This document shows positions 4,821 to 33,401 of a stretch of DNA of 64,000 bases, piece by piece. The notes beneath the pieces were generated by a model. That model ran no database searches. It had not been told where the DNA came from and saw nothing but the letters and a program-made list of their open reading frames with translations. Source of the stretch: Escherichia phage vB_EcoM_VR26. A program made the translations under genes and the position numbers. The stretch is taken from the sequence record NC_028957.1; one strand, 5' to 3'. Positions within the stretch are counted from its first letter, which is position 1; every line of letters begins with the position of its first letter.

Positions 4821-5579
4821 TTATTCCTTACTTTGTTTCAAGTATTCTATCGCAGTTTCTAATGAAGCAATATTGTCTTTAAACATTCCTAGTCCTATGT
4901 TGCATTTTGAACATAAAATACCTCGGACTTTACCAGTCGAGTGACAATGGTCTACATTGAACCAAGTGCTTTTTGATAAAGAAGTCGAATTGTTTGTTAG
5001 TTTTATTTTACAAATTTCGCAGTATGGTGTATCCTCAATTAACTTCAGAACATCCCGTCTTTTCATCTTTATAGAATGACTGTATGATAAGTCCAGCAAT
5101 TTGGTATCCCTTGCCTTTTGACAACAAGAATCCGAACAATATTTTTGAGTCCTATTTGTTGCAGTATACTCAATAGCACACACAGGACAAATACGCTCTT
5201 CCTTGAATATTCCACCACCCTGGCATTTAACTGAACAAAATTCATGGTAACCGGTCGCGAATGTATGATAATTAACAGGCTTACCACACTTACACAGGAC
5301 TTTCCCTTTTATATCATGTAAAATACGATAACAGACCTCGTTATACGGATGTTGTTCTCTTTTACCTCCCTGACATTCCAGTGCTTCTGCTCTAAAGGCA
5401 TTTGCTTCCTCAGGATGTTTTTCCCAAAATTTCTTTGCAAATTCTAAATCATTTTTAAATAAATTTCCGTTTAGTCTATTCGGATTTTTAGTTAAAAGAT
5501 TTTCTTCAATAAATTGTTTTAAGTTCATGGAGGTATTATAAGTCACATATTTTAAAGCAAAAAGGCCCGAAGGCCTCAT
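4821..5579 (-). CDS. Cys-rich zinc-finger protein with C-terminal endonuclease VII-like nuclease motif
   Basis: C-terminal VDHCHSTGKVRGILCSKCNIGLG parallels gp49 motif DHDHELNGPKAGKVRGLLCNLCNG; several CxxC pairs; AT-rich; start ambiguous (ATGA-coupled ATG at 5579 inside hairpin, or ATG at 5528). Confidence 0.6.
   Translation of the reverse strand: MRPSGLFALKYVTYNTSMNLKQFIEENLLTKNPNRLNGNLFKNDLEFAKKFWEKHPEEANAFRAEALECQGGKREQHPYNEVCYRILHDIKGKVLCKCGKPVNYHTFATGYHEFCSVKCQGGGIFKEERICPVCAIEYTATNRTQKYCSDSCCQKARDTKLLDLSYSHSIKMKRRDVLKLIEDTPYCEICKIKLTNNSTSLSKSTWFNVDHCHSTGKVRGILCSKCNIGLGMFKDNIASLETAIEYLKQSKE
5556..5577 (-). terminator. rho-independent terminator-like hairpin (UUCG tetraloop)
   Basis: aggcc-cgaa-ggcct with adjacent A-run; overlaps stop of 5576..5836 and first codons of 4821..5579. 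Confidence 0.45.
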
Positions 5580-5836
5580 TCAAATCGGATGGTTGAATTC
5601 TTGAACAACAATCCAGAACAAACAGTTCCTTCAACTTTCTTACCAGTTGGACCCACTGCTATAAAACCAGTATGCTGGAAATCATCTTTGGAGCATCCAA
5701 ACCAGTTATATCCGGTGATTTGGATTTGCTCATTGCCGTTTGCATCTAATACACGAACGGCATTATCTGCGTCAGTACAACCAGCCAATGAAACAGCCAA
5801 AACCAGCGCGGCAATAGAACGATTAATATATTTCAT
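5576..5836 (-). CDS. small lipoprotein
   Basis: 86 aa; signal peptide with lipobox LAGC; stop overlaps next start (ATGA). Confidence 0.6.
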   Translation of the reverse strand: MKYINRSIAALVLAVSLAGCTDADNAVRVLDANGNEQIQITGYNWFGCSKDDFQHTGFIAVGPTGKKVEGTVCSGLLFKNSTIRFE

Positions 5837-6023
5837 ATTTCCTCATTTAAGCAGGTCGTAAAACCCGCCATTAACATGTTTAGGGGCCGAGACTAGCCGA
5901 ACAGCCAGCCGATGGCAATCAGGGCAAACATCATTATCTCTTTCAGAGATTTTCTTGATTTTTTCGTATTCTTTTGCGCAGTCTTTGGATTGACATTTGT
6001 AATCATAAAGTGGCATCTCTAAA

Positions 6024-6383
6024 TTATTCCTTAAAGTGTGCTTTCAACATCTGGAAAACTGACCAGGCTTCTTCATTATTACTAATGGTGATTTTAGTCA
6101 ATGGGAATGCAGTGATTTCTGGAGCTTCAGTTTCTTCATCGCCGTCATCTTTTTCTTCTTCAAAGAAATGGAATTCCTCTTCTGTTATGAATAGACTCTC
6201 CATCCCGCCGGTTGACAATTCTATTTTATACACATCGCCACCTTCAATTTTGACTGGTCTAAACCCTTCGCCATTGATTATAGCATCAGCTATATTATCA
6301 TTATCCGTGCATAACAAACGGAATCTACTTTCAGAAGCATTGTCTTTAAAATAATACCATTTATCAGTTTCAAATTTAGACAT
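6024..6383 (-). CDS. hypothetical acidic protein
   Basis: ATG at 6381-6383 (MSKFETDKW) with AAGGAG SD; track start further upstream is an over-extension. Confidence 0.45.
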   Translation of the reverse strand: MSKFETDKWYYFKDNASESRFRLLCTDNDNIADAIINGEGFRPVKIEGGDVYKIELSTGGMESLFITEEEFHFFEEEKDDGDEETEAPEITAFPLTKITISNNEEAWSVFQMLKAHFKE

Positions 6384-6600
6384 TATAAGTCTCCTTCCAA
6401 AAATCTGTACCATCTTCTGACTCTTCGCGGAACAAAGCATAGCTTGGTAGCTGTGCGTCTTTATTTTCATACACATAAATGATATCAGTTGTGCAAAGAA
6501 ACTCATTGATGTTTTTCTTAACAATCACTTTATCACTTTCAGCGGTGTCCCAAAACTCTTCAGCAGTCAGGGAAGTGGTCACACAATCTTCATTGAACAT
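6376..6600 (-). CDS. hypothetical protein
   Basis: 74-aa ORF with ATG start; promoter-like leader with inverted repeat upstream. Confidence 0.45.
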   Translation of the reverse strand: MFNEDCVTTSLTAEEFWDTAESDKVIVKKNINEFLCTTDIIYVYENKDAQLPSYALFREESEDGTDFWKETYNV

Positions 6601-6650
6601 AATATTCTCCTCATTGATAGGGCAAAATTACCCTATCATTATTTTATAAT

Positions 6651-7142
6651 TTAAGCAAAATGAATATCAGCATACTCAACGATAAAGCTTTCAGGAATTA
6701 CCTTAAAGGTACCAAGGAACACAATATTATACAGTTTAACCCCCTCTTCAACCCATTGGTCTGTGATATAACCAGACATACTAGTGGTTTCATAAGTCGG
6801 ACCATACTTGCAAATGTATTCAAATGGCTTAGGCGAAACAAAAAAGACACCTTTACCTAATTTCCATTTAAAATCAACCCCAACATGAGACTGGTCAATG
6901 GTTTCAACTTCTTCAACTACAGGAGCAATGTATCCAGTGAATTCAGTTGATTCCAGGAATTTAGGATGCACGTAAGCGAATTGAGTTTCAGTCTGACCAT
7001 TTTTAGGAATGATGCGCACTTTAACTTCTTTAATTCCGCCTACTAAATTAGTACGAATACCGACAACCTCAACAAAACGTCCAGCAGCTCTTGAACGAGA
7101 TTTTTTGGATACACGAACGATTTCGCCAGCTTCAACTTTCAT
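6651..7142 (-). CDS. MotB-like protein (by size and position)
   Basis: 163 aa; perfect TATAAT and TGTACA promoter upstream; C-terminal domain paralogous to 7220..7972. Confidence 0.45.
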   Translation of the reverse strand: MKVEAGEIVRVSKKSRSRAAGRFVEVVGIRTNLVGGIKEVKVRIIPKNGQTETQFAYVHPKFLESTEFTGYIAPVVEEVETIDQSHVGVDFKWKLGKGVFFVSPKPFEYICKYGPTYETTSMSGYITDQWVEEGVKLYNIVFLGTFKVIPESFIVEYADIHFA

Positions 7143-7184
7143 AATTTTCTCTCTTGGTTAATAAGTTTATTCTCCAGTGGGACC

Positions 7185-7213
7185 ATTATACTCTGGCCCC
7201 AAGAGTTTGTACA
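7185..7213 (-). promoter_or_regulatory. early promoter (TGTACA, 17 nt, TATAAT)
   Basis: Perfect TATAAT at 7185-7190; GTGTACA at 7208-7213; upstream of 6651..7142. Confidence 0.55.
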
Positions 7214-7219
7214 CTAAAC

Positions 7220-7972
7220 TTAATTAAAAATTTCAACAGCCATGGAACGCGGGACAACAGTAAATTCACCAGCATGGACGACGTTCAGGAGTTCAACACC
7301 ATCTTCAATCCACTGGTCTGTTACCCAACCACAAATGGAACTATTAAATGGACGTTTGATTTGAACTGGTTTGCACAGCAAGTCAACAGGGTCACCCAGT
7401 TCGCTAACTTCTTTCAACAGTACAGATTCACGCGGGTAAAGGATAGCTTCAAGATGCTCGTCTGATTCATTGACTGCAGTAAATTCAAAGATGTTTAAGT
7501 GAGTGCTGTACTTAACTGTTTTTACAGTAAATGGAGCAAAGCCAAAAATACCTTTCAGCACCCGCCAACCGGCATTCAATGCATTAGTATTATCAAAATC
7601 ACCATATCCAACAAGTTGATAGGTTTTGTCAACTTTGATAGGAGCTTCTTCAACTTCTTTGAAGAGCTCAATCTCAGCTTCATAAACCATAATTTTTTCT
7701 ACTTCATTAGTATCCAGGCGGCGGGCATGCAAAATATATGCTTTATCAAACCAGTTACTTTTTACAAAAGTTTCAACAACAAATTCGCCTTCACCTAAAG
7801 CATCAGTCAGAGTATTATACCCAGAAATCATAGCTGCGTTTTGAATAATAGGTTCAATCAGACGATAAGTTTTGTTAGTTTCGATAGTCATATTTTGTTT
7901 CTCAAGTTTTAATTGTTTAATTGGGCGAACATACATGCTTGTGATATCAAAGTCAATAATTTCTGGTTTCAT
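7220..7972 (-). CDS. hypothetical protein with MotB-like C-terminal domain
   Basis: 250 aa; C-terminus GWVTDQWIEDGVELLNVVHAGEFTVVP aligns with GYITDQWVEEGVKLYNIVFLGTFKVIP of 6651..7142. Confidence 0.5.
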   Translation of the reverse strand: MKPEIIDFDITSMYVRPIKQLKLEKQNMTIETNKTYRLIEPIIQNAAMISGYNTLTDALGEGEFVVETFVKSNWFDKAYILHARRLDTNEVEKIMVYEAEIELFKEVEEAPIKVDKTYQLVGYGDFDNTNALNAGWRVLKGIFGFAPFTVKTVKYSTHLNIFEFTAVNESDEHLEAILYPRESVLLKEVSELGDPVDLLCKPVQIKRPFNSSICGWVTDQWIEDGVELLNVVHAGEFTVVPRSMAVEIFN

Positions 7973-8229
7973 TATGCCACCTCGTTGAACATCGCCAGTT
8001 GATTGGGTTGTACAACCATAATTTCACGACGACCTTTTGCGTTTGACACGTTCAGGTAGATGCCTTTGTTCATGTCTGTTTCTTTATCATATACTGCAAC
8101 TTTATTGACAGTAAAGATTTTACCACGAATATTTGTAAATGCACATTCAAACGCTTTGGTCAGACCTGCTTCAGCAGCTTGAATAGCAGACATTTCATAT
8201 TGTTGGCCAATTTTAAAAGAAGTAATCAT
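7972..8229 (-). CDS. hypothetical protein
   Basis: True ATG at 8227-8229 (MITSFKIG) after GAGGAAA SD; track N-terminal extension is translated leader. Confidence 0.5.
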   Translation of the reverse strand: MITSFKIGQQYEMSAIQAAEAGLTKAFECAFTNIRGKIFTVNKVAVYDKETDMNKGIYLNVSNAKGRREIMVVQPNQLAMFNEVA

Positions 8230-8260
8230 TTTGTTTTCCTCATCAGTAGTTGATGAGATG

Positions 8261-8289
8261 ATTATGTCTCTTTCCATTGGCCTTGTACA
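8261..8289 (-). promoter_or_regulatory. early promoter (TGTACA, 17 nt, CATAAT) with ATCAACTACTGATGAGG leader
   Basis: Leader motif 8239-8258 precedes true ATG at 8227-8229. Confidence 0.5.
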
Positions 8290-8296
8290 CTACTTT

Positions 8297-8980
8297 TTAT
8301 CGTTTTTTCGGTAAAGATAACGGGTCTGCATCTTCTTCGGCAGGAACTTCATCTAAACCAAGAGCATAGCGCTGGGCGTACTTCAACATAAGAATATCTT
8401 TCGCACAATCATGCACACTATCGTGCGCTACAAATCCACCCAAAGTCCCCTTCGGTAACGGAGTTTCACACATCTTACGGACGAGTGACAGTGCTTCGAT
8501 TGCTGTTCGGATATCTCGCTGGTTCCAGAATACAACCGGTTCCAGGTCATAGGTATTCAATTCACGCTCAGGGATACCCTCATTACGCTGCAGGTCGCGA
8601 ATAAGGTCGACAAACAACGGGAAGTCAAAAGACATTCCACGACACCACATAAGGCTTTCGTATTTGTTAATTCCATTACCCTTCAGATAATCAATCGCTT
8701 GTTGGATGCCAGTCAGGGTATCGACATCATTTGCAGTTGGCGCCAGGTTAACACGAGCTTCTGGAGATTGTTTTTTCCACCAACCCATGGTTGTTGTGTC
8801 AAACAGACGTTTACCTTTCTGGTATTCTAGGCTGAACTTAATGCGTTTACCGCGATTAACCAGGGTTTCGAATGATTCCACAATAGCAGGGTCAGATTCA
8901 AATGTAATCAGAGCCAGGTCAATAACGGCTCCCTTCGAGCCGTTTCCCAGAGTTTCAAAGTCAATAATAGCATCAATCAT
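8297..8980 (-). CDS. dexA: exonuclease A (DnaQ-like 3'-5' exonuclease)
   Basis: 227 aa; N-terminal IIDFETLG exonuclease motif; size and position match T4 DexA. Confidence 0.82.
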   Translation of the reverse strand: MIDAIIDFETLGNGSKGAVIDLALITFESDPAIVESFETLVNRGKRIKFSLEYQKGKRLFDTTTMGWWKKQSPEARVNLAPTANDVDTLTGIQQAIDYLKGNGINKYESLMWCRGMSFDFPLFVDLIRDLQRNEGIPERELNTYDLEPVVFWNQRDIRTAIEALSLVRKMCETPLPKGTLGGFVAHDSVHDCAKDILMLKYAQRYALGLDEVPAEEDADPLSLPKKR

Positions 8981-9212
8981 CGCACATCTCTTTTAATTTC
9001 TGAATTTCACCAGCAACATAGTCAGAGATAAAAATCCCGGGCTCTTCATTGTTAAAATATTCAATCGCAGCCATACGTTTCTGGATAAGACTCAGTTCCA
9101 GTAAAACGTAATTGCCCTGTTGGACGATAGTCGGATTATCTTCGTAAAATTCAACGGCATCATGAATACCGTAGATAAGATTATCTAAATCTTCTTTATA
9201 TACCTTATACAT
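8973..9212 (-). CDS. hypothetical protein
   Basis: 79-aa ORF overlapping neighbouring genes by 8 nt on each side. Confidence 0.45.
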   Translation of the reverse strand: MYKVYKEDLDNLIYGIHDAVEFYEDNPTIVQQGNYVLLELSLIQKRMAAIEYFNNEEPGIFISDYVAGEIQKLKEMCDD

Positions 9213-10533
9213 AATATGCGTCGTACCTCGCTCGTGTGATTCCTACATAAGCCAACTGGCTCGCTAATGAAGCTTCAGCCATATGGATGCATGGAGTATA
9301 GATGAATGCTTTGTTTACTGAAACACCCTGTGCCTTGTGGATTGTACTGACTGGAAGAGCACGAACTTTCAAGAAGGTCCGGCGTGCTTTCCAGAAGTCT
9401 TTCCACTCTGGACGTTTACCAGCAGCTTTCATCTGTTTGTATGTATCAGCAACTTTCGCCAGATATGCCTGGAATTTTGGTTGCTGGTCTTCTGGTAAAA
9501 CTTTGATACGGTCAACCTGATATTCTTCATCTTCATCAATTGACTCAACTTCCAGGTCCCAGTAATTAATTACCAACTGGTGCGATTCCCCTTTACAACG
9601 GAGAATGGTGGAAGTGTATTTGCAATCCTTGATACGAACCAACTGACCATTATTAAAAATGGTTTCGCTGAATTTCTTACCTTCAAATTCCAGCTCTTTC
9701 ATATGTGGCTCTTGCATAACCAGGACTTCATACGGTAAAAATGCTTTATCCGTTTCATAGAGCTTGCGACGAATAATATTATTCAGTTTTTCAACTGATT
9801 TATTCGTGTACGCATACATCCTATTTTCCATCAACATATCAGCATCTTTTACATGACTGAAATAGTTTACCATGAAATCCTTTAAAGCGGTTTGTGAGGT
9901 GAAACCTTGTACACCATGACCTTCATACATGCAATCACGGAACCAACCACCATTACGAATTTCTGTCGCCACTTCAATGATAGGAGCATTGCTTCGCATG
10001 ACCTCAGTCAGATGAATCTGTTTGAACTTAGGATGCGTAAAGAATGGACTTATCTTTTGCTGTGTGCTTCCTGGGTCAACTGGCTGCAGCTGGTGCATAT
10101 CACCAATCCCAAGAATGGTACACCACTCTGGAACAGAGTTGCAAATAATCTTAAACAGAGACCCGTCATACATACTTGCTTCATCACAAATCAGAACATT
10201 ACATTTTGACATATCAGGCATTTCGCGCTGTTCAAAAATGTTTTGGTCTTCATATGTGGTCGGGTTAATCTTCAGGATGCTATGGATTGTATTCGCTGTT
10301 TGGCCAGACAATTTGGATAAAACCTTTTTTGCCTGGTGAGTTGGTGCAGCAAGCACAATTCCCAAAACTCCATTACGTACCAGGTGGTCAATGACAAATT
10401 TTGTCAGAGTAGTCTTACCTGTACCAGCTGGACCATTCAGAGTGATACATTCCCCTGAACGTCGCTGAATAGCTTGGGTGATATAATCAAAAGCTTCTTT
10501 TTGTCCTGTGTTCAAGTCTTCAAATTTAATCAT
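9205..10533 (-). CDS. dda: Dda DNA helicase (SF1B)
   Basis: 442 aa; Walker A GPAGTGKTTL; N-terminus resembles recalled T4 Dda. Confidence 0.9.
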   Translation of the reverse strand: MIKFEDLNTGQKEAFDYITQAIQRRSGECITLNGPAGTGKTTLTKFVIDHLVRNGVLGIVLAAPTHQAKKVLSKLSGQTANTIHSILKINPTTYEDQNIFEQREMPDMSKCNVLICDEASMYDGSLFKIICNSVPEWCTILGIGDMHQLQPVDPGSTQQKISPFFTHPKFKQIHLTEVMRSNAPIIEVATEIRNGGWFRDCMYEGHGVQGFTSQTALKDFMVNYFSHVKDADMLMENRMYAYTNKSVEKLNNIIRRKLYETDKAFLPYEVLVMQEPHMKELEFEGKKFSETIFNNGQLVRIKDCKYTSTILRCKGESHQLVINYWDLEVESIDEDEEYQVDRIKVLPEDQQPKFQAYLAKVADTYKQMKAAGKRPEWKDFWKARRTFLKVRALPVSTIHKAQGVSVNKAFIYTPCIHMAEASLASQLAYVGITRARYDAYYV

Positions 10534-31480: not shown

Positions 31481-31732
31481 TTAATCAAAGTATTCATATG
31501 CGAACCAGGCTTTGTGTCTGTTCGCGATTATTTTAACATATTCTTCACCGAAAGCGTTTTGCAAGTCACGTTCAGTAACTAGGTGTTCATCTTTCGAAAA
31601 GGTATTAACTAACACATATCGTTTAATTTCGGGGACAGCTAGTAAATGCTGCCCGGTTAAGAAGTCAGCCATAGCAGCCTCTATTATAACATCCTTGTTT
31701 AAAGCATTATTCCATAACAGTGAATCGACCAA
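31481..31732 (-). CDS. hypothetical protein
   Basis: 83-aa ORF. Confidence 0.4.
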   Translation of the reverse strand: MVDSLLWNNALNKDVIIEAAMADFLTGQHLLAVPEIKRYVLVNTFSKDEHLVTERDLQNAFGEEYVKIIANRHKAWFAYEYFD

Positions 31733-33401
31733 CTTTTTTCATCTGGAGATGTTGCCCGTATGCTTCCGGGTCATGGTCTCGGTGACTGATAATAAAGATG
31801 TTGGTGTCTTCCAATTTGTTCAGGATGGTAGCAATTGCTTTAACACCCTCTACATCAGTAGCTGAATCGAAAACTTCGTCCAGAATCAATGTGTTGATAT
31901 TGACACCAGATACTTTTGCAGCAATATCACGCCATGTAAACAGCAATGCAATATCGATACGAGCTTTTTCACCCTGGCTAAATGATGCATAGCTAAAGTC
32001 TTCACGCCCACGAGATTTAATCGTTTCGTTGAATTCTTCATCAAGCGTAAAACTATAATCAGCTTCCATAACTTTCAGATAAGCATTAATTTGCTTATTA
32101 AAGATAGGAATATATTTCTTAATAATCGCGCCTTTGATTCCAGAATCTTTCAACATATCCGTTAAGATACCACGTTGATATTTTTCCATAACAAGGTTTG
32201 ATTTCTGTTTGACTATTTTATCAAGCTGGTCTTGAAGCGTTTTAATATCATCGGCATGGTCAATGAATTCAGACTTAGCTTGTTCAATTAACGTCTTAAC
32301 CTTTTTAGCTTTATCCACAGTCTGGATTAACGTTTGTTTCTTAGTTTGAATCTCTTGAGCTATTGTACGTTGGTTTTGTCTTGCTTCAGCGTACGCATCA
32401 AATCGTTCCTGAATGGAGGCCTGGAGAGCTTTATGGCTATCAGACTCACGATTATACTCTTCAATCTTTGTCTCAATCCTGGGGACTATGGAGTCTCCTG
32501 GCGACAATTGACTCAAACACGTTTGGCAACAACCGCCTTTCTCGTACAAACCGATTACCTTACGGAAGCTATCGATTTTCGATTTAATCAGGAACGATTC
32601 TTGCTTGACTTTCGTCAGTTCCTGTTCAGGGTCTTCACCCAAAATAATCTCGGTCAATCTTGTCGTTGCTTCATCAATCGTTGATTTGATATCACGAGCT
32701 TCTGAAGCCAAATCATCATACATCGTTTGCAGTCGTAGCAGATTATCACCGGATAATTTTTTCTGCTTTTCAACGTTGTCCTGGTAGATTTTAATCTGTT
32801 GCACAACACCATCATGCTGAACGTCAATCACCTGGATTTGACTGTTGACTTCACGGATAAGAGATTTGTTGAGCTTATCCATATCAGCCAGTACAGAAAC
32901 CTCTAGCAGGTCTTCGACGAGTTTTCTTCTTGCAGGAGTGGATAGGCCCATGAAAGGGGTATATCCAGCTGTGCCGAGTACGACAATCTGTTTGAAACTG
33001 GCGTATGACATTCCGATAAGCTGTTCAAATTCTGCTTGGAAGTCTTTACTGCTGGCAGATTCATCAAGACGTTCACCGCCACAAGAGATTTCAAAAACAT
33101 TGGGTTTTTGCCCACGTTTGATATAGTATTCTTTGCCATCATATTCCATCCACAATTCAACGAGCATATCTTTTTTGTTGCTCGAGTTAATCAACTGCCC
33201 TTTCTTAACATCACGAAAAGGCTTACCAAACAATGCAAATGTAACGGCTTCAAGGAAGGTTGATTTACCTGCACCGTTCTTACCGGTCACCAGAGTTTTC
33301 TGGACCTTATCGAGTTGAACCGTAATTGCTTGTGCTCCAACTGACATAATATTTTTATAGATAACTTTCTTTAGCTTAAAAGTCTTCATCGTAATAAGCA
33401 T
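31707..33401 (-). CDS. 46: recombination nuclease ATPase subunit (Rad50/SbcC-like)
   Basis: 564 aa; Walker A GKNGAGKST; collinear with recalled T4 gp46. Confidence 0.9.
   Translation of the reverse strand: MLITMKTFKLKKVIYKNIMSVGAQAITVQLDKVQKTLVTGKNGAGKSTFLEAVTFALFGKPFRDVKKGQLINSSNKKDMLVELWMEYDGKEYYIKRGQKPNVFEISCGGERLDESASSKDFQAEFEQLIGMSYASFKQIVVLGTAGYTPFMGLSTPARRKLVEDLLEVSVLADMDKLNKSLIREVNSQIQVIDVQHDGVVQQIKIYQDNVEKQKKLSGDNLLRLQTMYDDLASEARDIKSTIDEATTRLTEIILGEDPEQELTKVKQESFLIKSKIDSFRKVIGLYEKGGCCQTCLSQLSPGDSIVPRIETKIEEYNRESDSHKALQASIQERFDAYAEARQNQRTIAQEIQTKKQTLIQTVDKAKKVKTLIEQAKSEFIDHADDIKTLQDQLDKIVKQKSNLVMEKYQRGILTDMLKDSGIKGAIIKKYIPIFNKQINAYLKVMEADYSFTLDEEFNETIKSRGREDFSYASFSQGEKARIDIALLFTWRDIAAKVSGVNINTLILDEVFDSATDVEGVKAIATILNKLEDTNIFIISHRDHDPEAYGQHLQMKKVGRFTVME

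What the first reader, a model, noticed from the sequence alone, without database searches (positions are those of the whole stretch)
6651..7972. Duplicated MotB-like C-terminal domain in adjacent genes
The 163-aa and 250-aa proteins share a roughly 40-residue C-terminal segment (G(Y/W)(I/V)TDQW(V/I)E(E/D)GV(K/E)L.N(I/V)V...G.F.V(I/V)P) while N-terminal regions differ, suggesting domain duplication followed by fusion to a new N-terminal module.
Basis: seen in the sequence. Interest (0 to 1): 0.35.

Follow-up and report, generated by a model that had tools for sequence, protein, structure and literature searches.

The report
MotB and MotB.1 share one domain
Two neighbouring early genes of this T4-like phage, motB and motB.1, carry the same small C-terminal beta-barrel domain behind unrelated N-terminal parts; the similarity is genuine, but it was published in 2021 for this phage group, so it is ordinary.

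Summary
The window is a Gaprivervirus, a VR7-like T4-type coliphage. The gene at 6651-7142(-) is MotB. The gene at 7220-7972(-) is the gene annotated motB.1 in VR7. Their C-termini are homologous: BLASTP E 3e-12, Smith-Waterman z = 15.9, family profile comparison 98-99% probability. The shared unit is a complete five-stranded small beta-barrel of about 55-70 residues, not a low-complexity patch. The N-terminal parts show no detectable sequence relationship. An old duplication with different N-terminal modules is therefore supported; the shared core is 56% identical at the DNA level and third codon positions are near random.

This is already in the literature. Patterson-West et al. 2021 (PMC7827196) describe the shared C-terminal domain (CTD) and suggest duplication, and they list the VR7 pair.

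Small additions from this work:
- This MotB.1 (250 aa) carries two tandem copies of the LSm/SH3-like barrel, where T4 MotB.1 has one.
- The CTD family is tiny: 34 clusters among 1.84 billion proteins, always at the C-terminus.
- The CTD is acidic and looks SH3-like rather than a basic OB fold.

From the last point I infer, without testing, that it is a protein-docking or oligomerisation module rather than the DNA binder. Interest is low.

The parts
6651..7142 (-). motB gene (163 aa plus stop), orthologue of T4 MotB
   Evidence: Pfam PF17613 over full length, E 2e-54. phrog_1671, E 7e-68. 56% identity to T4 MotB over full length, E 3e-61. Annotated motB in VR7.
6945..7142 (-). MotB N-terminal domain (aa 1-66): basic small beta-barrel with a KOW/SH3-like fold
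6864..6944 (-). MotB acidic linker (aa 67-93), predicted disordered
   Evidence: pLDDT below 50 for aa 70-83. Net charge -5.
6654..6863 (-). MotB C-terminal domain (aa 94-163): the copy of the shared domain that carries a long beta1-beta2 hairpin insert
   Evidence: AF2 strands at 98-110, 116-132, 135-142, 145-150 and 154-157, pLDDT above 90. hhalign against the MotB.1 CTD. Alignment A4.
7185..7213 (-). Sigma-70/T4-early-like promoter match (TGTACA-17-TATAAT) in the 77-nt gap between motB.1 and motB
   Evidence: Best promoter-like match of the region, 10/12. Sequence read. Consensus match only; function not shown.
7220..7972 (-). motB.1 gene (250 aa plus stop), tandem-barrel Gaprivervirus form. 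Its ATG overlaps the TAA of the upstream ORF (TAATG).
   Evidence: phrog_2333, E 2e-76. Annotated MotB.1 in VR7. aa 112-250 are 44% identical to the whole of T4 MotB.1, E 7e-36. Start context read.
7892..7972 (-). MotB.1 N-terminal tail (aa 1-27), predicted disordered, carrying the conserved motif IIDFDITSMYVRPIKQL
   Evidence: pLDDT below 50 for aa 1-9 and 12-27. D7, D9, Y14, P20 and L21 are at least 90% conserved in the family. The same motif lies between the N-terminal domain and the CTD in hybrid proteins.
7643..7891 (-). MotB.1 barrel A (aa 28-110): LSm/SH3-like module of the type found in the ~180-aa MotB.1 proteins
   Evidence: AF2 elements E35-38, H46-59, E63-71, E78-85, E91-97, H98-103, E104-106. 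Alignment A1.
7397..7642 (-). MotB.1 barrel B (aa 111-192): second copy of the same module, the one that corresponds to the T4 MotB.1 N-terminal domain
   Evidence: AF2 shows the same element order at 117-189. A versus B: BLASTP E 0.002, Smith-Waterman z 6.4, barrel-A HMM domain E 1e-13, hhalign 98.9%, E 1e-17 over 78 columns.
7223..7396 (-). MotB.1 C-terminal domain (aa 193-250): the short copy of the shared domain (DPxDLL...GWVTDQWIEDGVELLNVVHAG.F.VVPRS)
   Evidence: AF2 elements H195-198, E202-205, E213-223, E226-233, E236-241, E245-247. Most conserved part of the family, mean pairwise identity 0.84 against 0.71 for barrel A. Net charge -4.

Best explanation
motB and motB.1 are old paralogues lying in the non-essential early region between gene 39 and dexA of a T4-like (Gaprivervirus) phage. 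They share one C-terminal small beta-barrel domain, and each has its own N-terminal module.

MotB has a basic KOW/SH3-like barrel. MotB.1 has LSm/SH3-like barrels, two in tandem in this phage and one in T4.

Proposed mechanism (inferred, not shown): the basic N-terminal domain gives MotB its published tight, non-specific DNA binding. The shared acidic C-terminal barrel is a common protein-docking or oligomerisation module. It would connect both proteins to the same partner, either each other or a host factor of the H-NS/StpA kind that co-purifies with MotB. The acidic MotB.1 barrels would supply a different, still unknown ligand specificity.

The confidence of 0.85 applies to the homology and architecture claims. 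I put the docking-module mechanism at about 0.35.
For: Homology of the C-terminal domains (CTDs).

No sequence relationship between the N-terminal modules.

Old duplication: 56% nucleotide identity, third codon positions 16/36 identical.

Tandem barrel in MotB.1. T4 MotB.1 equals barrel B plus CTD.

The CTD is under the strongest constraint in MotB.1 (mean pairwise identity 0.84 against 0.71). It always sits at the C-terminus, behind at least four different N-terminal arrangements. This is the behaviour of a portable module.

Charges: MotB N-terminal domain mean +5.7 (range +2 to +9). MotB CTD mean -2.3. MotB.1 CTD mean -4.0 (range -5 to -2). Whole window MotB.1 is -14, pI 4.8.

Published: T4 MotB binds DNA tightly and non-specifically, co-purifies with H-NS/StpA and alters H-NS footprints (PMC6070864 and PMC7827196). 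T4 MotB.1 runs as monomer and dimer (PMC12152347).
Against: No experiment or computation here tests binding of the CTD to anything.

Patterson-West et al. 2021 assign the MotB CTD to the cold-shock-like OB fold by HHpred and regard it as a possible DNA-binding domain.

Net charge is a crude predictor, and some MotB CTDs reach +2.

AF3 gave no confident homomultimer for T4 MotB.1.

Deletion of motB.1 in T4 has no phenotype in laboratory conditions, so there is no functional read-out yet.
Confidence: 0.85

Rival explanations
1. The shared C-terminal domain (CTD) is a nucleic-acid-binding OB fold of the cold-shock/IF5A C-domain type. On this reading both MotB and MotB.1 are DNA- or RNA-binding proteins through this domain, and the N-terminal modules only modulate it.
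Confidence: 0.25
2. The similarity results from recent gene conversion or recombination between adjacent genes rather than an old duplication.
For: The genes are adjacent, on the same strand, and 77 nt apart. T4-like phages recombine heavily (general knowledge).
Against: The best-conserved 36 codons are 56% identical at the DNA level, with 16/36 identical third positions. Each family keeps its own CTD signature across many genera (KLYNIVFLG versus ELLNVVHAG). The two CTDs differ by a 13-20-residue insertion.
Confidence: 0.02
3. The similarity is a chance or compositional match in a short patch. This is the refutation condition the first reader set.
For: None found. The pairwise alignment is short (53 columns).
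Against: E 3e-12 with composition-based statistics. z = 15.9 against shuffles. Reciprocal HMM hits of E 8e-13 and 3e-15, with no other ORF of the window below E 0.03. The predicted secondary structure is the same in both.
Confidence: 0.01

Closest known systems
T4 MotB / MotB.1 pair as described by Patterson-West et al. 2021 (Viruses 13:84, PMC7827196)
   Same: Same two genes, same order (…cef, motB, motB.1, …dexA), same conserved C-terminal domain (CTD) behind different N-terminal domains, and the same duplication hypothesis. The VR7 proteins YP_004063692 and YP_004063693, from the close relative VR7 (about 94% DNA identity over 5500-9300), are listed in that paper's Table S4.
   Different: The paper treats the MotB.1-like N-terminal domains as two distinct categories (2 and 4). 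Here the two N-terminal types are shown to be homologous barrels, and both are present in tandem in this 250-aa protein. The paper calls the CTD an OB fold; the models here look SH3-like and acidic.
Tevenvirinae LSm-like fold family: GoF, MotB.1, Frd.2 (Kim et al. 2025, PMC12152347)
   Same: Barrel B plus the CTD of this protein is 44% identical to T4 MotB.1, whose aa 1-82 are the published LSm-like domain. The AF2 model shows bent antiparallel barrels. The window's GoF (6024-6383) lies three genes downstream and gives a weak Pfam FRD2 hit.
   Different: There are two barrels in one polypeptide. The paper's main text does not mention tandem copies. No sequence-level link between these barrels and the window's GoF was detectable. 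RNA binding has not been shown for wild-type MotB.1.
KOW / Tudor / SH3-like small beta-barrels (Spt5, NusG CTD, EF-P domain I, 53BP1 Tudor)
   Different: Sequence identity is 8-22%. There is no Pfam KOW or Tudor hit at E <= 0.1. The resemblance is at fold level only and gives no evidence of shared function.

Membership tests
Pfam PF17613 (motB, 'Modifier of transcription') | Full-length match to the 162-position model above the 25-bit gathering score | tested here: met
   163-aa protein: 184 bits, aa 1-162 on model positions 1-161.
Pfam PF17613 (motB), applied to the 250-aa protein | Full-length match to the model | tested here: not met
   Only model positions 118-152 match (aa 210-244), at 34.2 bits. 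The score passes the cut-off, but the protein shares only the C-terminal core and is not a MotB orthologue.
MotB.1 family (phrog_2333; T4 MotB.1, P39415) | End-to-end similarity to MotB.1 proteins, including the DPxDLL…GWVTDQWIEDGVELLNVVH C-terminal domain (CTD) | tested here: met
   phrog_2333, E 1.6e-76, aa 2-250. 44% identity to the whole of T4 MotB.1. The invariant CTD columns are shared with 42 relatives.
Tevenvirinae LSm-like fold proteins (Kim et al. 2025) | N-terminal bent five-stranded antiparallel beta-sheet homologous to the T4 MotB.1 N-terminal domain | tested here: met
   AF2 modules at aa 35-106 and 117-189. Barrel B aligns to the T4 MotB.1 N-terminal domain. Barrel A is homologous to barrel B.
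Bona fide Sm/LSm (Hfq-like) proteins | Sm1/Sm2 sequence motifs, ring-shaped oligomer, RNA binding | not testable with these tools
   No Pfam LSM or Hfq hit at E <= 0.1. Oligomer state and RNA binding need experiments. Published AF3 multimer models for T4 MotB.1 were not confident.
OB fold, cold-shock DNA-binding-like (proposed for the MotB CTD in PMC7827196) | Five-stranded Greek-key barrel with the capping helix between strands 3 and 4; usually a basic nucleic-acid-binding face | tested here: inconclusive
KOW motif proteins (Pfam PF00467), proposed for the MotB N-terminal domain | KOW sequence motif within an SH3-like barrel | tested here: inconclusive

The most novel reading that the evidence does not exclude
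The shared C-terminal barrel may not be a DNA-binding OB fold. It may instead be an acidic SH3-like docking module that is portable among T4-like phages. It occurs behind a KOW-like domain, behind one or two LSm-like barrels, and behind other N-terminal domains. Through it, MotB and MotB.1 would heterodimerise or bind one common host target, for example H-NS/StpA. MotB.1 would then be a second, differently armed effector of the same anti-nucleoid-protein system. The conserved D-x-D-x-x-S-M-Y peptide in the disordered tail would be a second docking site.
Probability: 0.3. Interest if true: 0.4.

Novelty: already known. Interest (0 to 1): 0.15.

Why it matters
It matters little beyond annotation. 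The shared MotB/MotB.1 domain is published, and so is the duplication idea.

The added details could help anyone dissecting how MotB counters H-NS:
- The two published MotB.1 N-terminal 'categories' are one homologous barrel, and both occur in tandem here.
- The C-terminal domain (CTD) family is extremely narrow and always C-terminal.
- The CTD is acidic and looks SH3-like.

Together they suggest that the basic N-terminal domain, not the CTD, is the DNA binder, and that the CTD should be tested as an interaction module. They also give MotB.1, which has no known function, a concrete hypothesis.

Tried and rejected
1. Upstream 101-aa ORF (7972-8277, VR7ORF013c) as a stand-alone copy of the MotB.1 barrel. 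It looked so by eye. Smith-Waterman shuffles gave z 1.9 and -0.5. The barrel HMM gave E 3.1. hhalign gave probabilities below 1%. Only 6 close homologue clusters exist, so the profile is too shallow. Unsupported.

2. Sequence link between the MotB.1 barrels and the window's GoF, or between the barrels and the MotB N-terminal domain. Not significant. The published GoF link is structural only.

3. T4 MotB.2 against the window's MotB.1 or ORF013c. No similarity.

4. Solved structures of either protein. None found by sequence.

5. A third copy of the C-terminal domain (CTD) in the 64-kb window. None.

6. Long repeat proteins that hit CTD profile positions about 15-40 several times (P0237, P0239, P0241-P0245). 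The one inspected, P0245, looks like translated repetitive DNA. Treated as spurious.

7. Son et al. 2021 (NAR 49:9229; PMC8450097), the paper on MotB and DNA compaction, is not held in the library. Its content is not used beyond its title as cited in PMC12152347.

Full report
**What the window is.** The region 5500-9300 is 94-97% identical at the DNA level to Escherichia phages TH15, VR7 and VR25 (genus Gaprivervirus, Tevenvirinae). In VR7 the gene order on the minus strand is 39, an endonuclease-like ORF, 39.1, 39.2, goF, cef, motB, motB.1, ORF013c, dexA, dexA.2, dda. The window has the same ORFs. This is the early, non-essential region of T4-type genomes.

**Check of the observation.**
- The two ORFs are as described: 6651-7142(-) is 163 aa and 7220-7972(-) is 250 aa.
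- BLASTP aligns aa 106-156 of the first with aa 195-247 of the second, 22/53 identical, E 3e-12.
- The Smith-Waterman score (115) lies 15.9 standard deviations above 2000 shuffles, and none reaches it.
- Pfam motB (PF17613) matches the 163-aa protein end to end (E 2e-54). In the 250-aa protein it matches only aa 210-244, at 34 bits against a 25-bit cut-off.
- PHROGs gives the mirror image: phrog_1671 (MotB-like) for the first, and phrog_2333 over the full length of the second, with cross-hits restricted to the C-termini.
- I aligned 45 MotB-family and 43 MotB.1-family proteins. Comparing the profiles gives 98.4% probability, E 8e-15, over MotB aa 94-159 and MotB.1 aa 198-250. With the C-terminal domains (CTDs) alone it is 99.2%, E 1e-19.
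- A joint alignment of CTDs has nine invariant columns (D, W, E, G, L, N, V, G, V). It also shows that MotB carries a 13-20-residue insertion after the first strand.
- HMMs of either CTD find only these two genes among all 1056 ORFs of at least 30 codons in the window.

The shared unit is a whole domain of 55-70 residues and is not a low-complexity patch.

**Anatomy.** AlphaFold2 with the family alignments gave usable models.
- MotB (mean pLDDT 81). It has a four-strand N-terminal barrel (aa 8-58), a disordered acidic linker (pLDDT below 50 at aa 70-83), and a five-strand C-terminal barrel (aa 98-157) with pLDDT above 90.
- MotB.1 (mean pLDDT 75.5). It has a disordered tail (aa 1-27), then two modules with the same order of elements (strand, helix, three strands, short helix, strand) at aa 35-106 and 117-189, then a five-strand CTD at aa 195-247.
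- In both CTDs the only helical turn lies between strands 4 and 5.
- No solved structure of either protein exists by sequence search.

**The tandem repeat inside MotB.1.**
- Barrel A (aa 28-110) and barrel B (aa 111-192) are homologous: BLASTP E 0.002, 29% identity over 82 columns.
- Shuffle z is 6.4. An HMM built from the barrel-A columns of the family hits barrel B with domain E 1e-13.
- hhalign gives 98.9%, E 1e-17 over 78 columns.
- T4 MotB.1 (143 aa as annotated; 119 aa / 13.8 kDa in UniProt P39415) aligns as a whole to aa 112-250 at 44% identity. It therefore corresponds to barrel B plus the CTD.
- The common ~180-aa MotB.1 proteins of Dhakavirus and many Tequatrovirus phages correspond to tail plus barrel A plus CTD.
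- Other relatives carry a different extra N-terminal domain in front of barrel A (P0008, P0022, P0040), or a B-type barrel alone (P0097).
- The 250-aa tandem form occurs in the Gaprivervirus group: about 28 phage records at 80% identity or more, plus seven close protein clusters.

**N-terminal modules differ.** In the domain-by-domain profile matrix, the MotB N-terminal domain has no significant similarity to barrel A, barrel B or either CTD. The barrels have none to the CTDs (E 0.03-0.9).

**Age of the duplication.** The best-conserved 36 codons are 56% identical at the DNA level, with 16/36 identical third positions. This is not recent gene conversion. Each family keeps its own CTD signature across genera.

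**Distribution of the shared domain.** A profile of the joint CTD alignment was scored against 1.84 billion cluster representatives.
- It found 34 proteins at E <= 1e-3 and 21 at E <= 1e-10.
- All credible hits are short (43-251 aa), and the match is at the C-terminus.
- Several combine a MotB-like N-terminal domain (MKIxxxVYVSxxSxSKVAGE…) with a MotB.1-type CTD (DPTDLL…GWVTDQWIEDGVELLNVV…): P0224, P0226, P0228, P0231, P0232, P0234, P0236.
- Such proteins are encoded by Klebsiella and Enterobacter T4-like phages. Phage Q7622 has a single motB-like gene between dexA and cef.
- N-terminal and CTD types are therefore not strictly linked, and the direction of evolution is open.

**What is already known.**
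- Patterson-West et al. [quoted passage not shown] They sort 102 homologues into categories. Their Table S4 lists the VR7 MotB and MotB.1 proteins.
- The same group showed that T4 MotB binds DNA tightly and non-specifically, is toxic when overproduced, co-purifies with H-NS and StpA, changes H-NS footprints, and de-represses H-NS-silenced host genes (abstracts).
- Kim et al. 2025 (PMC12152347) showed that the N-terminal domain of T4 MotB.1 (aa 1-82), GoF and Frd.2 share an LSm-like/SH3-like barrel. They found that deletion of motB.1 has no laboratory phenotype, that MotB.1 runs as monomer and dimer, and that wild-type MotB.1 had only a small effect in their RNA reporter assay. Their main text does not mention tandem barrels.

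**How it most likely works.**

Shown here:
- The two genes are paralogues through one C-terminal small barrel.
- The N-terminal modules are unrelated in sequence.
- The CTD is the most conserved part of MotB.1 (mean pairwise identity 0.84 against 0.71 for barrel A).
- The MotB N-terminal domain is basic (+7 here, family mean +5.7). Both CTDs are acidic (family means -2.3 and -4.0). The whole window MotB.1 has net charge -14 and pI 4.8.

Inferred:
- The basic KOW-like N-terminal domain is the main DNA-binding part of MotB.
- The shared acidic barrel is a docking or oligomerisation module. It would tie MotB and MotB.1 to each other or to a common host partner.
- I give this mechanism about 0.35.

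**Expression context.**
- The motB.1 ATG overlaps the TAA of the upstream ORF (TAATG) and follows a GAGGTGG ribosome-binding site.
- A 77-nt gap separates motB.1 from motB. It contains the best sigma-70-like match of the region, TGTACA-17-TATAAT.
- motB may therefore have its own early promoter in addition to read-through transcription. This is a consensus match only.

**Verdict.** The finding is already in the literature for T4 and for this phage's close relative VR7. The tandem-barrel architecture and the charge and fold remarks are small additions. Interest is low.

Noticed in passing
window 7910-7960 (-), MotB.1 aa 5-21: The motif IIDFDITSMYVRPIKQL (D7, D9, Y14, P20 and L21 at least 90% conserved in the family) lies in a tail that AF2 predicts as disordered. 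The same D-x-D-x-x-S-M-Y…P motif lies between the KOW-like N-terminal domain and the C-terminal domain in Klebsiella/Enterobacter phage proteins, and between the barrel and the C-terminal domain in P0229. It looks like a short docking peptide whose position moves with domain shuffling.
   Followed up: partly
L005:1658-2154 (RB69, AY303349): The RB69 'motB.1' (132 aa) and the 29-aa RB69ORF012c are one MotB.1 gene whose C-terminal domain is split over three reading frames (…SIRRPF / AGPVSGWVTDQWIEDG / VELLNVVHAGDFSVVPRSAVVNILN). The 29-aa ORF is the 'Category 3' peptide of the 2021 paper. P0229 is the intact 164-aa version. This is either a pseudogene or sequencing errors.
   Followed up: yes
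L006:1231-1725 (Enterobacter phage Q7622); P0224, P0226, P0228, P0231, P0232, P0234, P0236: Hybrid proteins join a MotB-type N-terminal domain to a MotB.1-type C-terminal domain. In Q7622 it is the only motB-like gene between dexA and cef. This may be the ancestral single-copy state.
   Followed up: partly
window 7972-8277 (-): This 101-aa ORF (VR7ORF013c) sits where T4 has motB.2 but is unrelated to T4 MotB.2. It has only six close homologue clusters in 5.8 billion proteins. Four of them, and phrog_17795, start at its Met17, so the true start may be at 8229. A by-eye resemblance to the MotB.1 barrel was not supported statistically.
   Followed up: yes
window 4821-5579 (-): A 252-aa ORF lies between gene 39 and 39.1. 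Its C-terminal part matches Endonuclease VII/HNH (Pfam PF02945, E 5e-18; phrog_1271 HNH endonuclease). It is probably a free-standing homing endonuclease. T4 has no gene at this position.
   Followed up: no
window 31484-31738 (-): An 85-aa ORF (phrog_1045, unknown function) gives a weak partial hit to the barrel-A HMM (E 0.0098, model positions 9-54). It may be another distant barrel paralogue or may be chance.
   Followed up: no
window 6024-6383 (-), goF: The window's GoF gives a sub-threshold Pfam FRD2 hit (E 0.047). This is consistent with the published GoF-Frd.2 relationship. The mechanical ORF extends to a TTG at 6524, but VR7 annotates the ATG that gives 119 aa.
   Followed up: no
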